A DNA stretch of 64,000 nt from Octopus vulgaris (Eukaryota): positions 158,100,001-158,164,000 of the forward strand of contig OX597815.1 of assembly GCA_951406725.2 (NCBI GenBank), written 5' to 3'. Under the pieces are notes generated by a model. The model ran no database searches, was not told the DNA's origin, and was given only the letters and a program-made list of their open reading frames with translations. Shown piece after piece: positions 22,426 to 61,013 of this stretch. Within the stretch, counting starts at the first letter, position 1; each line of letters opens with the position of its first letter. The position numbers and the translations under genes are program-made.

Positions 22426-22569
22426 TATATAATATATATATATATGTGTGTGTGTGCCCACATAGACACACACAAATATATACATACATACACATACATA
22501 TGTATATATATACCTATATATATATACATATATACATACATACATATATACCTATATATATATACATAT

Positions 22570-22608
<39 letters not shown>

Positions 22609-22609
22609 T

Positions 22610-22692
<83 letters not shown>

Positions 22693-22740
22693 CATATATA
22701 AATATATATACATATATATACAAATTATTACATTATATAC
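22426..22740. repeat. Compound (TA)n/(TACA)n microsatellite; similar tracts at 4597-4658, 12229-12338, 24622-24865, 25296-25606, 33607-34090, 57329-57664, 61015-61390 and 63700-64000
   Basis: Directly visible low-complexity tracts; these produce the YIYI/HTHT ORFs. Confidence 0.97.
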
Positions 22741-23499
22741 TTTAAGTATTAGAAATAGTTTTAAAAAAGTTTTTTAGCTGCTATTTCTAATGAGTTCAGT
22801 ATGCGGCAAAGTAATTTATTTTACTAAGCCCTTTTATATAATGTAATAATTTGAATTCGCCTTAAATGGTCCCTTTGCATACTGAACACTTGGTGAAATT
22901 GATTAATAATTAATTAATTTTACCCTCAATTGTTGAAATTATAATTAATCTCTCTCTAATTAATGCCTCGGATTTTACCGAAATAAGCATAGTGTTTGCT
23001 GATTTTAACCCACGCTGGTGGAAAGGGGAGAACAGAAATTCTTCGCTTGCATATTTGAGTTTGTTGGCACTGTTAGTTGCGGGCAGGTCTTCAGAAGCGA
23101 TAGGAAGCCGAAAGGGCATGCTCCCACTTTCAGTGTTTTCAAATCCAAACCAAGGAGTTTCTGAGCTGATGATAGAAGTGTCGTGTTGACTAATCTTGAA
23201 ACGTACGTTCTCAAATAACCTTTGCATTTGATTTTTTGATGTCTTTACCCCCATACTTTCGTGAGCTGAATTGAGCAAACACTATATGAGAGAGGTTTTC
23301 TTTAAGTATTAGAAATAGTTTTAAAAAGTTTTTAGCTGCTATTTCTAATGAGTTCAGTATGCGGCAAAGTAATTTATTTTACTAAGCCCTTTTATATAAT
23401 GTAATAATTTGAATTCGCCTTAAATGGTCCCTTTGCATACTGAACACTTGGTGAAATTGATTAATAATTAATTAATTTTACCCTCAATTGTTGAAATTA
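22741..23499 (+). mobile_element. Non-coding hammerhead-bearing element with ~200-bp direct terminal repeats (Penelope-like pLTR or retrozyme-like), inserted in (TA)n
   Basis: 22741-22941 is near-identical to 23301-23499 (period 560 nt), with a hammerhead between them and microsatellite on both flanks. Confidence 0.7.
23162..23213 (+). ncRNA. Minimal type I hammerhead ribozyme motif
   Basis: TGAG-CTGATGA(23166-72)-T AGA..GTC gtgtt GAC..TCT T-GAAAC GTAC GTT-CTCA. Stem III lies in the palindrome AACGTACGTT. Predicted cleavage is after 23209 (GUU). Confidence 0.7.
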
Positions 23500-23599
23500 C
23501 ATATATATATACATATATATATATACATATATAAATATATATGTATACATATATATATATATTTATATAATATATATATATACATATAATATATATTTA

Positions 23600-24182
23600 A
23601 GATCTTTTCCTTTTGAACGGCAGACAATTTCTAGTTAACTAAACACTTTAAAACTTCGTATACTGGTAGAATTTGTCAAAATAAAACATTTTTTTCTCTT
23701 GGCTTTCTTGAGAAAATTTTAATCTGTTTGTTTAACATAGTTTAATTTTTCAAATTTTAACCAATCCTATGCTCTTTTTTGAGCTAAAATCATTTGCTGT
23801 GTCTAAAACTGAGACAACATCCTGTCACTAACCCTCAACCTAACCTTAACCCTAAATTTTTTTTTCTTAATTGTTAAATTCATTTAACAATAAAAAAAAA
23901 ATAGGGTTAGGGTTAGGTTGAGGGTTAGTGACAGGATGTTGTCTCAGTTTTAGACACAGCAAATGATTTTAGTTCAATGGAGGTAATCAATTGGTTAAAA
24001 TTGCCGAAATGCTTGGATTTTCAGATGAAATATCTTACAAACTATAGAATTTTCTCAATAAAACCAAGAGAAAATGATGTTTTATAAACATTTATAAACA
24101 CATTCTACCAGTATACGAAGTTTAAAACTTTTTAGTAACCTAGAAATTATGTTACAAACTGCCGTTCAAAAGGAAAAGATCC
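23600..24182. mobile_element. Palindromic MITE/foldback element with internal telomere-like (CCCTAA/TTAGGG) repeats
   Basis: Termini gatcttttccttttgaacggcag / ctgccgttcaaaaggaaaagatc. The arms pair along most of the length; the centre reads aaccctcaacctaaccttaaccctaa..tagggttagggttaggttgagggtt. Flanked by TA repeats. Confidence 0.85.
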
Positions 24183-24619
24183 TATATTTATAATATATAT
24201 TATATATATACATGATATATATATATATGCTATATATATATATAATATATATACAATATTCTTTTATTGACTGCGTCCATGCTCGAGCACCACCTTTTAG
24301 TCGAACAAATCAGGACTTATTCTTTGTAAGCCTAGTATTTATTCCATCAGTCCCTTGTTGCCAAACCGCTAAGTTACAGGGACATAAGCACACCAGCATT
24401 GCATGTCAACCGATGTTGGGGGGAGGGGGAACAAACAGACACACACATATATATATATGACAGGCTTCTTTCAGTTTCTGTCTACCAAATCCACTCACAA
24501 GGCTTTGGCCGGCCCAAGGCTATAGTAGAAGACACTTGACCAAGGTGCCACACAGTGGGACTGAACCTGGAACCATGTGGTTGGTAAGCAAGCTACTTAC
24601 CATGCAGCCACCCCTGAGC

Positions 24620-35995: not shown

Positions 35996-36608
35996 AGTAA
36001 AGATTGTTTGCCAACATAACATGGCAGTCCTGGTTTAGGACGAATGTTACTGTAATTTAGCTCCCGGAGACATCGTTTCCAGCTGGCTATATGACATGAT
36101 CTGTGTTCTTATATTTTCGAACAAGAAAATGTGGCACCCCCACTCAGTTCAAAACAATATCTGTGTATCACAATTCTGGGTTATTTCTCTTCATCAGCAC
36201 AGAATAATTGTTTGGCTAGAGGTGGTGCTGCCAAATTCCAGTTCGAAATATTAAATAGTTTTCCAAGTGACAACTAGTCACTGATCAATAGTAATTTCCT
36301 AATTTATAGATCAGTGACTAGTTGTCACTTTGAAAACTATATATTTCGAATTGGAATTCAGCAGCATCACCTCTAGCCGAACAATTATTCTGTGCTGATG
36401 AAGAGAAATAACCCAGAAATCATGATATACAGATATTGTTTCGAGCTGAGTGGGAATGCTATATTCCCTTGTTTGAAAATGTAAGGTCACAGATTGTGTT
36501 GTATAGCTAGTTGGAGACAACCTCCTTCAAATGTTTTTTCACATGCCAATAAAGCAACATTCGTCCGAAAACAGGACTGTCATGTTATGTTGGTAAACAA
36601 TCTTTACT
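35996..36608. mobile_element. Head-to-head inverted dimer (arms 35996-36286 and 36309-36608), each arm carrying a hammerhead motif; Penelope-like remnant
   Basis: The arms are diverged reverse complements. The minus-strand hammerhead copy at 36143-36221 reads GAATT instead of GAAAT. Confidence 0.7.
36371..36450 (+). ncRNA. Minimal type I hammerhead ribozyme motif with long stem I
   Basis: AACAATtatTCTGTG-CTGATGA(36395-401)-A GAG aaataa CCC A-GAAA TCATGA TA-TACAGA t ATTGTT. Stem III is the palindrome ATCATGAT; stem II is weak. Confidence 0.6.
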
Positions 36609-59029: not shown

Positions 59030-60401
59030 TAGATAGATGGATATAGATATAGATATATACACAAACACACATAAAAAGATAAATTGATAGATAAACTGAG
59101 TGGGCAAACAAAAATATGAGACACAGCCTAGTGCTCTTTTTATGTTGATAAGCCTGGTACTTATTCTATTAGTTTCTTCTTGTGAAGCCACTAAGTTATG
59201 GGGATGTAAATAAATGAACAGCAGTTGTGAAGCAGTGATGAGAGAGAAACACAAAGACACACACATAGACTTACATATATACATACATATATATGCAATT
59301 GATTTCTGAGGTCATGCTTGACTACCTCATCCCATGTCTTCCTGGGTCTACCTCTCCCCCTGATTCCTTCAACTGTTTGGGAGCGGCACTTCTTCACACA
59401 TCTCTCCTCATCCATCCGCAGTACATGACCATACCATCGCAAGCATCGCTCTTGCACACCACATCTGATGCTTCTTATGTCCAGCATTTCTCTCAGGGTG
59501 CTTACACTCTGTCGTGCATGCACACTGACATTACACATCCAGCGGATCATGCTAGCTTCATTTCTTTCAAGTCTACGCATGTCCTCTGCAGTCACGGCCC
59601 ATGTTTCACTACCGTGAAGCATTGCAGTTCGCACACATGCATCATACAATCTACCTTTCACTCTGAGTGAGAGACCCTTTGTAGCCAGTAGGGGTAGGAG
59701 CTTTCTAAACTTTGCCCAGGCTATTCATATTCTAGTGGTGACACTCTCTGAGCATCCACCTCCACTACTAACTTGGTCACCCAGGTAGCGGAAACTATCG
59801 ACTACTTCTAGTTTCTCCCCCTGGAGTGTGATGGAATCTGTTTTCTGAGTATTTGTGGTGTCTATTGTCCCTGTGCATCTGCCGCACATGAAAGCTATCT
59901 AATCAGTTAATTTCCCTTTGATGTTGCTGCACCTCTTATGCGTCCATATCTTACACTGGGTGCATCTTATGGAGTTTCTACCTACACCTTTCCTACAGAT
60001 CGAGCAGGGTCACCTGTCCGATGGGGTGTGTGCTGAGTTCGCCTTTCTGCTTACTATAACTTTGGTCTTTGCTACATTTACTCTAAGGCCCTTTGATTCT
60101 AACCCTTGTTTCCACACCCGAAATTTCTTTTCTAGTTCCGGTAGTGATTCTGCTATGAGAGCCAGGTCATCAGCATAGAGGAGCTCCCAGGGGCAACCTG
60201 TTTTGAATTCCTCTGTTATTGCCTGGAGGACTGTGATGAATAAAAGGGGACTGAGGGCTGAGCCTTGGTGTACACCTACTTCTACCCGGAATTCTTCACT
60301 ATATTCGTTGTCAATCCTAACCTTGCTGACAGCCTCTCCGTATAGGGCCTGTACAACCCTTATTAGCCATTCGTCAACATCCATATATATACATATAGAT
60401 G

Positions 60402-60444
<43 letters not shown>

Positions 60445-61013
60445 AAATTTAAATTTAAAATAATAAGGGAGAAAAATTGAATATTAATTTGATTAATATG
60501 AATTGAAAACCAGTGGTGTAGCATATAAGACCATAGCGGATCTTCTTGTAGGAAAATGGATGTCCATTGTTAATGGTTACATATATATATATATATATAA
60601 TTGATTTGTTTCAGTTTCTTCTACGAAATCTATGTATATATACATATATATATGTATACACAAACACAAAAATAAATTGATAGATACAACTGAGTGGGCA
60701 AACAAAAATATGAGACACTGCCTAGTGCTTTTTTTTTACTTTGATAAGCCAGGTACTTATTCTATCTGTTTCTTCTTGTGAAACCTGAAAGTTATGGGGA
60801 TGTAAATAAATGAACACCAGTTGTGAAGCAGTGATGAGAGAGAAACACAAAGACACATATATATGCAATTGATTTCTTTCAAGGCTTTGGTTGGTCTGAG
60901 GCTATAGCAGAAGACACATGCCAAGTTACCACACAGTGGGACTGAACTGAGGAGCATGTGTTTTGGAACCAAGTTTGTTACCACAGAGCCAAACCTGCAC
61001 CTATGTATGTATC

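What the first reader, a model, noticed from the sequence alone, without database searches (positions are those of the whole stretch)
22741..23499. Hammerhead-ribozyme element: 560-nt unit with 200-bp terminal redundancy (retrozyme/circRNA-like)
Seen: two near-identical ~200-bp direct repeats 560 nt apart with no credible coding capacity. Between them is a complete type I hammerhead (stem I TGAG/CTCA, core CTGATGA and GAAAC, palindromic stem III AACGTACGTT, GUU cleavage site), and the element lies in (TA)n. Established: minimal hammerheads with palindromic stem III occur in Penelope-like element pLTRs and in non-coding retrozymes, can cleave as dimers, and can yield circular RNA. Inference: about 1.36 copies of a circularly permuted monomer is what reverse transcription around a ~560-nt RNA circle, or pLTR formation, would leave. 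The near identity of the repeats suggests a young and possibly active ribozyme-based mobile RNA family.
Basis: partly seen in the sequence, partly recalled or inferred. Interest (0 to 1): 0.8.

Follow-up and report, generated by a model that had tools for sequence, protein, structure and literature searches.

The report
Penelope-type hammerhead retrozyme copy
This is one likely young copy of a very abundant 560-base non-coding repeat that carries a hammerhead ribozyme motif and likely spreads by borrowing the enzymes of a Penelope-like retrotransposon; the family appears undescribed, but the kind of element is already known in animals.

Summary
Observation confirmed. There are two 200-bp direct repeats (no substitutions, two 1-nt homopolymer indels) around a type I hammerhead motif with intact core and palindromic stem III, all inside (TA)n. 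New here: the whole 560-nt unit is a high-copy family (4,693 contigs in one public run; 20 runs, 5 organism labels). The copy has a 19-nt inverted templated piece at its 5' junction and a possible ~30-nt target duplication. The unit folds far better than shuffles (z about -5.5), with modest support for compensatory changes outside the ribozyme. This is the anatomy of a Penelope-like partial tandem without an ORF, i.e. an animal non-LTR retrozyme, a kind already published. Not shown: cleavage, a circle, a fixed 3' end, a parent ORF. This copy has one hammerhead, so it cannot release a unit-length RNA itself. Stem II is weak, Rfam gives no hammerhead hit, and the monomer is predicted to block the ribozyme. 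A linear multimer template explains 1.36 units as well as a circle does. The scan noted a similar element in another genome. Verdict: new member of a known kind; interest 0.4.

The parts
22430..22720 (.). left (TA)n/(TAC) microsatellite flank, likely the insertion target
   Evidence: sequence
22680..22709 (+). left copy of a 30-nt interrupted-TA string also found at 23513-23542; possible degenerate target-site duplication (inconclusive)
   Evidence: its 22-nt core occurs only at 22688 and 23521 in the 64-kb window, both strands; offset 11-13 nt from the junctions
22721..22739 (-). 19-nt inverted copy of element positions 22835-22853 at the 5' junction (templated insertion or minimal inverted 5' piece)
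   Evidence: exact 19-mer, the only 19-mer of the unit found outside the element in the window
22740..22941 (+). repeat A: 5'-truncated upstream partial unit (pseudo-LTR-like); three strong hairpins
   Evidence: fold z -7.65
22942..23299 (+). segment B, present once; predicted 350-nt rod-like domain closed by 22947-56/23288-97
   Evidence: z -3.0
23162..23213 (+). type I hammerhead motif, short stem I, weak stem II, palindromic stem III; predicted cut after 23209
   Evidence: sequence; no Rfam hit
23300..23499 (+). repeat A': 3' end of the element; 23499 is the inferred reverse-transcription start, 290 nt downstream of the predicted cut
   Evidence: role inferred from PMC11167929
23500..23597 (.). 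right (TA)n flank, holds the second copy of the 30-nt string (23513-23542)

Best explanation
The locus is a 1.36-unit copy of a high-copy, non-coding 560-nt repeat with a type I hammerhead motif, likely a non-autonomous Penelope-like element (animal non-LTR retrozyme) that was likely inserted into a (TA)n tract by a Penelope RT/endonuclease acting in trans. Proposed steps: (1, inferred) a source locus with two or more units is transcribed; (2, predicted, untested) the hammerheads cut weakly, as dimers through the palindromic stem III or with protein help, and may give a monomer that can be circularised; (3, inferred) the PLE protein nicks AT-rich DNA and starts cDNA internally at the position matching 23499; (4, inferred) it copies one full unit and 200 nt more, either around a circle or along a linear multimer (about 40:60, unresolved); (5, inferred) synthesis stops at 22740 and the 5' end is joined by repair that leaves a 19-nt inverted templated piece. 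This copy has one hammerhead and is a product, not a source of monomers.
For: Shown: repeat anatomy and hammerhead motif. Contigs cover 30 of 30 bins in 4 of 4 runs laid: 4,693, 2,999, 626 and 177 contigs; the lowest interior bin in run X1 has summed depth 216,000, against about 20-45 for the rare-joint contigs. Contigs read B->A (table 5c) and bridge A->B (X4 record 17, X5 record 25); one diverged 630-nt contig in X5 also runs more than one unit. 20 of 24 listed runs, 11 studies and 5 organism labels hold the stretch. 5' inverted piece. Unit fold z -5.3 linear, -5.7 circular. Among 24 variants of frequency >=0.25 outside the ribozyme, 3 of 12 at confident pairs break a pair (7.9 expected, P=0.011) and 2 pairs change on both sides (22804/22877, 23087/23117; P=0.027); two more variants close 1x1 mismatches. 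In the ribozyme, listed changes fall at N7, stem II and a stem I wobble, none in the core. Established: partial tandems, 5' truncation, inverted 5' pieces and microsatellite bias of PLEs (PMC8557442, PMC3846280, PMC8969392); dimeric hammerheads with palindromic stem III in pLTRs (PMC4209133); internal RT start downstream of the hammerhead in AT-rich targets (PMC11167929); retrozymes as PLE derivatives (10.64898/2026.07.22.740005).
Against: No parent PLE ORF was seen: none in the window and none among the 24 of 268 loose ends shown. A fixed 3' end and variable 5' ends could not be shown; depth drops after 22941 in all four runs, but similar dips occur where this copy diverges, so it is ambiguous. 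Stem II lacks G10.1-C11.1 and the active fold is 4-10 kcal/mol above the minimum; no Rfam hit. Absence of core variants is not significant alone (about 1.9 expected in 26 positions). The covariation result is modest: a first, cruder test gave P=0.51; with all 35 variants P=0.097 and 0.059; the frequency cut was chosen afterwards; phase is unknown; 20 of 60 variant rows were not shown. The minus strand also folds well (z -6.1, -2.9). The inverted piece is not a classic inverted pLTR, since it does not include the 3' terminus.
Confidence: 0.7

Rival explanations
1. Hammerhead-bearing satellite whose units are dispersed at DNA level (array fragment or extrachromosomal DNA circle captured at a break in (TA)n), with no reverse transcription for this copy.
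For: Depth in A and in parts of B is similar in X1, as long arrays would give. Templated inversions at junctions also arise in end-joining repair (general knowledge). Satellite-type amplification of retrozymes is proposed in 10.64898/2026.07.22.740005.
Against: Possible target duplication; pair-preserving variants and a sense-strand ribozyme point to an RNA stage; the geometry matches PLE partial tandems.
Confidence: 0.12
2. SINE-like element mobilised by a LINE (RTE, R4/Dong, CR1) rather than by a PLE; the 3' (TA)n is a tail or a LINE target.
For: An RT fragment of LINE type lies in the window (59191-60483, PF00078); the 3' end abuts (TA)n.
Against: No similarity of the unit to anything else in the window; LINE TPRT does not normally give more-than-unit partial tandems; hammerheads of this type are a PLE feature (PMC4209133).
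Confidence: 0.08
3. Rare internally deleted copy of an abundant autonomous PLE, where the high depth comes from the parent's pLTRs (the reading an earlier agent reached for another genome, e1-7814458).
For: Depth dips at 22949-22986 and 23082-23119; 244 of 268 loose ends were not shown.
Against: Even the dips carry summed depth above 200,000 in X1 and are bridged by contigs of depth 624-1,434; the loose ends shown are mostly variants of the unit itself; no ORF remnant on the sense strand.
Confidence: 0.07
4. LTR-type mini-element (TRIM or plant-type LTR retrozyme) with A and A' as true LTRs.
For: Repeat-internal-repeat layout with near-identical repeats; A is deeper than B in X4.
Against: No TG...CA ends, no primer-binding site after A, no 4-6-bp TSD, and the hammerhead is type I and lies outside the repeats.
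Confidence: 0.03

Closest known systems
Metazoan non-LTR retrozymes (Cervera & de la Pena 2020, PMC7229834; Li, Clavereau & Pollet 2026, 10.64898/2026.07.22.740005)
   Same: Non-coding head-to-tail unit with a type I hammerhead, GC under 45% (35%), high copy, strongly self-paired, proposed PLE-dependent.
   Different: 560 nt, against about 170-400 nt for the invertebrate cases (inside the 51-972 bp range of Li et al.). Hammerhead predicted blocked in the monomer, as reported for plant retrozymes and some mussel circles but not most animal ones. This copy has one hammerhead, so it fails Li et al.'s 'active' definition. Circular RNA not shown.
EN+ Penelope-like elements and their pLTR hammerheads (Penelope/Poseidon, Neptune; PAc of Anolis; PMC4209133, PMC11167929, PMC3846280)
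   Same: Partial tandem forming a ~200-bp pseudo-LTR, 5' truncation, inverted piece at the 5' junction, AT-rich target, palindromic stem III, 3' end downstream of the ribozyme.
   Different: No RT/GIY-YIG ORF. The ribozyme is outside the duplicated part because truncation came first. Cut-to-end distance is 290 nt against about 90 nt in PAc. No G10.1-C11.1.
Non-autonomous Chlamys PLEs such as MRC1 (PMC8557442)
   Same: ORF-less elements that form pLTRs and head-to-tail insertions and were mistaken for LTR elements.
   Different: Green algae; that clade lacks canonical hammerheads; their parents are known.
Plant LTR retrozymes (PMC4918200, seen as listing only; features as summarised in the Li et al. 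preprint)
   Same: Repeat-internal-repeat layout, non-coding, predicted blocked ribozyme.
   Different: Type III hammerhead inside true LTRs, PBS/PPT and 4-bp TSD; none present here.

Membership tests
Type I hammerhead ribozyme | Catalytic core CUGANGA / GAAA / NUH with stems I and III | tested here: met
   descriptor 2 real hits vs 0 in 30 shuffles
Type I hammerhead ribozyme | Stable stem II closed by R10.1-Y11.1 (usually G-C) | tested here: inconclusive
   3 bp + internal loop + 3 bp with U.U next to the core in this copy and in the majority; G or A there in minor variants; no Rfam hit
Type I hammerhead ribozyme | Self-cleavage at the predicted site | not testable with these tools
   needs in vitro assay; stem III self-duplex predicted at -9.8 kcal/mol
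Metazoan non-LTR retrozyme | Multi-copy, non-coding unit of <1 kb with type I hammerhead, low GC | tested here: met
Metazoan non-LTR retrozyme | Head-to-tail unit junction present in many copies | tested here: met
   contigs bridge A->B and B->A, tables 5, 5c, 8
Metazoan non-LTR retrozyme | Loci with two or more complete hammerhead units | tested here: inconclusive
   this locus has one; no listed contig spans two; no genome held
Metazoan non-LTR retrozyme | Expressed as circular RNA | not testable with these tools
   only contigs available; no holder on record as RNA
Non-autonomous Penelope-like element | Partial tandem (pLTR) with 5' junction anomaly, AT-rich target | tested here: met
   (one copy)
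Non-autonomous Penelope-like element | Fixed 3' end, variable 5' ends across copies | tested here: inconclusive
   depth drop after 22941 confounded by divergence
Non-autonomous Penelope-like element | Terminal homology to an autonomous RT/GIY-YIG element | not testable with these tools
   no host genome; none among 24 of 268 loose ends shown
Autonomous PLE | RT + GIY-YIG ORF | tested here: not met
LTR retrozyme / TRIM | TG...CA LTRs holding a type III hammerhead, PBS/PPT, 4-bp TSD | tested here: not met
   sequence

The most novel reading that the evidence does not exclude
A viroid-like 560-nt RNA circle, selected for fold along its whole length and built to lock its own hammerhead once circular, is the actual template that a Penelope RT runs around. 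Thousands of dispersed partial-tandem copies like this one would then record that step directly and give the first genomic proof of circle-templated retrotransposition of an animal retrozyme.
Probability: 0.2. Interest if true: 0.7.

Novelty: new member of a known kind. Interest (0 to 1): 0.4.

Why it matters
How animal retrozymes move, and whether PLE tandems come from RNA circles, is still hypothesis (PMC7229834, PMC4209133; Li et al. say the mechanism remains to be worked out; PMC11167929 found cleavage unnecessary in vitro). A high-copy polymorphic family with dispersed, junction-readable copies makes this testable from an assembly alone: circle templating predicts that the two repeats inside each copy are identical at birth whatever the subfamily, while a linear multimer predicts repeat differences shared between sister copies. 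As a single locus it is ordinary repeat content.

Tried and rejected
Whole-genome copy count: no genome held. Rfam: no hammerhead family, only sub-threshold hairpin and snoRNA matches. Metagenome contigs: 0 hits with a hammerhead pattern and with a 21-mer of repeat A. Viral contigs: 20 pattern hits; 19 of 20 have stem I of 0-1 bp and none is homologous beyond the pattern, so chance. Minus-strand 114-aa ORF: no Pfam family (on the 123-aa stop-to-stop frame); Atlas recognition 1143, best score 0.83; one phmmer hit at E 1.6e-5 to a low-complexity repeat protein, rejected; no coding constraint. Expression: no RNA holder listed; run X16 is only guessed to be RNA and was laid as contigs, so it is not used as evidence. 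Depth profile as a test of a fixed 3' end: confounded, rejected. First covariation test (all 40 listed variants, no partner changes counted): no signal, P=0.51. Host: the repeat landscape looks like an octopus genome to me (recalled, no call supports it; a paper search with a flanking-repeat 16-mer found nothing; Atlas on the RT fragment gave no taxon). Earlier findings by sequence and by place: none. One search was uninformative.

Full report
Observation. The window holds two direct repeats, A (22740-22941) and A' (23300-23499), with no substitutions and two single-base homopolymer indels. Between them lies a type I hammerhead motif: stem I TGAG/CTCA, core CTGATGA and GAAA, palindromic stem III, predicted cut after 23209. 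A descriptor with these features hits 2 places in the window and none in 30 shuffled windows. Both flanks are (TA)n. Stem II is weak (3 bp, a 3x3 loop, 3 bp, and U.U next to the core). Rfam returns no hammerhead family, which I would expect for such a variant but which is no support. A 114-aa minus-strand ORF exists and is longer than chance (P=0.005), but 35 family variants inside it are 26 nonsynonymous, 3 stops and 6 synonymous, and homology searches gave nothing credible.

Junctions. Immediately left of A, 22721-22739 is an exact 19-nt reverse complement of element positions 22835-22853, the only 19-mer of the unit outside the element in 64 kb. It begins, on the element side, with TATATA, which fits a short templated extension primed by microhomology with the target (inference). 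It marks 22740 as a repaired 5' junction. A 30-nt interrupted-TA string occurs on both sides (22680-22709, 23513-23542) and its 22-nt core nowhere else in the window. It is 11-13 nt off the junctions, so it is a possible degenerate target duplication, not a proven one.

Copy number. No genome is held, so I used public runs. 20 of 24 listed runs, from 11 studies and 5 organism labels, hold the stretch. Laying 4 of them on the monomer 22740-23299 gave 4,693, 2,999, 626 and 177 contigs covering 30 of 30 bins. In X1 38% of contigs are 99% or more alike and 24% are under 95%. Summed depth is 0.2-1.6 million in X1, while rare-joint contigs have depth about 20-45. The tool warns that this is no copy number; my rough inference is thousands to tens of thousands of copies. 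Contigs read from B into A and bridge A into B (X4 record 17, depth 624; X5 record 25), and one about 81%-identical 630-nt contig also runs more than one unit. So the 560-nt unit and its head-to-tail junction are family features, not a local accident and not a rare by-product. None of the 24 loose ends shown (of 268) looks like a parent ORF. Depth falls after 22941 in all four runs, as a fixed 3' end would give, but it also dips wherever this copy diverges from the majority, so I do not count it.

Age. This copy differs from the majority (85% or more of depth in both X1 and X5) at 5 sites in B, yet A and A' have no substitution. If those 5 had arisen after insertion, zero differences between A and A' would have P=0.004. 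They were therefore inherited from a minor source lineage and the copy is young: at most about 0.75% divergence, or about 2 million years if the octopus rate quoted in PMC13282606 applies. The host is my recalled guess and is untested.

RNA structure. The unit folds far better than shuffles: z -5.28 linear, 0 of 100 shuffles as good; -5.66 circular. A forms three hairpins and B a 350-nt rod. The minus strand also folds well, so folding alone does not prove RNA-level selection. I mapped variants onto the fold predicted from this copy alone. A first test on all 40 listed rows that ignored partner changes showed nothing (25 of 40 non-disruptive, 24.6 expected). Dropping the 5 rows inside the ribozyme and counting partner changes, 8 of 19 paired variants break a pair (11.6 expected, P=0.097) and 2 pairs change on both sides (P=0.059). 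For the 24 variants at frequency 0.25 or more, 3 of 12 break (7.9 expected, P=0.011) and the 2 compensated pairs give P=0.027. The paired sites have similar frequencies in X1 (49/45% and 99.7/99.8%), but phase is unknown, the cut-off was chosen afterwards and 20 further rows were not shown. This is modest support for selection on structure beyond the ribozyme. In the monomer the 5' strand of stem I is sequestered and the active fold costs 9 kcal/mol (4-6 in short fragments); the stem III palindrome can form an 8-bp intermolecular duplex at -9.8 kcal/mol. I expect weak, dimer- or protein-dependent cleavage. Li et al. saw cleavage in 1 of 9 dimers, and the PAc ribozyme needed protein.

Mechanism. 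Shown: anatomy, abundance, motif. Inferred: a PLE RT/endonuclease in trans nicks (TA)n, starts cDNA internally at the 23499-equivalent site 290 nt downstream of the ribozyme cut, copies one unit plus 200 nt and is 5'-truncated at 22740. In PAc, RT starts internally about 90 nt downstream of the cut, in AT-rich targets, and uncleaved RNA is the main substrate (PMC11167929). Partial tandems, inverted 5' pieces and microsatellite bias are PLE hallmarks (PMC8557442, PMC3846280, PMC8969392). The template may be a circle, as proposed in PMC4209133 and PMC7229834, or a linear multimer. The identity of A and A' at sites where the family is 38-55% polymorphic fits one template read twice, but also a homogenised array. 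I put the circle at about 0.4. This locus, with one hammerhead, cannot release a monomer.

Comparison and novelty. It works like, and passes the tests I could run for, a metazoan non-LTR retrozyme / non-autonomous PLE. Arrays with two full hammerheads, a parent element, cleavage and circular RNA remain untested. It fails the tests for autonomous PLEs and for LTR retrozymes. I found no description of such a family in the guessed host: 'octopus' with 'hammerhead ribozyme' gave 5 papers, 4 listed; 'retrozyme' with 'octopus' gave 3, 2 listed; none is about this by title or abstract; and two cephalopod repeat papers have 0 occurrences of 'hammerhead' in their main text. Repbase, Dfam, subscription papers and the supplements of these papers were not seen and may hold the consensus under another name. 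An earlier agent of this scan reported a similar hammerhead mini-element in another genome as a gutted PLE (e1-7814458); I did not check that claim, but used it as a rival here and found it unlikely for this family.

Papers seen. PMC11167929: parts 1-2 of 4. PMC4209133: parts 1-2 of 4. PMC7229834: passages and sections 14 and 17. PMC8557442: passages and section 10. PMC3846280, PMC8969392, PMC13282606, PMC8967140: passages (one supplement of PMC13282606 listed, not read). PMC4918200: search listing only.

Verdict. Real, abundant and well formed; a new member of a known kind. Interest 0.4, mainly because the family could decide between circle and linear templates for PLE-type tandems.

Noticed in passing
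window 35996-36608: Head-to-head inverted repeat (about 80% identical arms of about 290 bp) with a second, unrelated hammerhead-like motif in both arms (+36389, -36203; 6-bp stem I, decayed stem II). It looks like an older PLE inverted-pLTR pair and suggests other hammerhead PLE families in this genome.
   Followed up: partly
window 23584-24198: Foldback/MITE-like element right of the finding, with terminal inverted repeats and an internal 86-bp hairpin (23779-23977) containing TTAGGG-like units.
   Followed up: no
window 59191-60483 (-): Broken LINE-type reverse transcriptase fragment (PF00078, E 1.3e-13), interrupted by microsatellites.
   Followed up: partly
window 22761-22777 vs 23321-23335: The two indels between A and A' remove one A and one T from opposite strands of the same hairpin, so the stem is kept; could be a real compensatory change or homopolymer sequencing error.
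   Followed up: no
joints 22762/22865 (X16) and 22867/23159 (X5): Opposite-strand joints in other copies, consistent with inverted 5' pieces elsewhere in the family.
   Followed up: no
window 22947-23297: The 5' truncation point (22740, equal to 23300 in the unit) lies 3 nt from the end of the helix that closes the 350-nt rod; may be an RT stop site or a true domain border.
   Followed up: no
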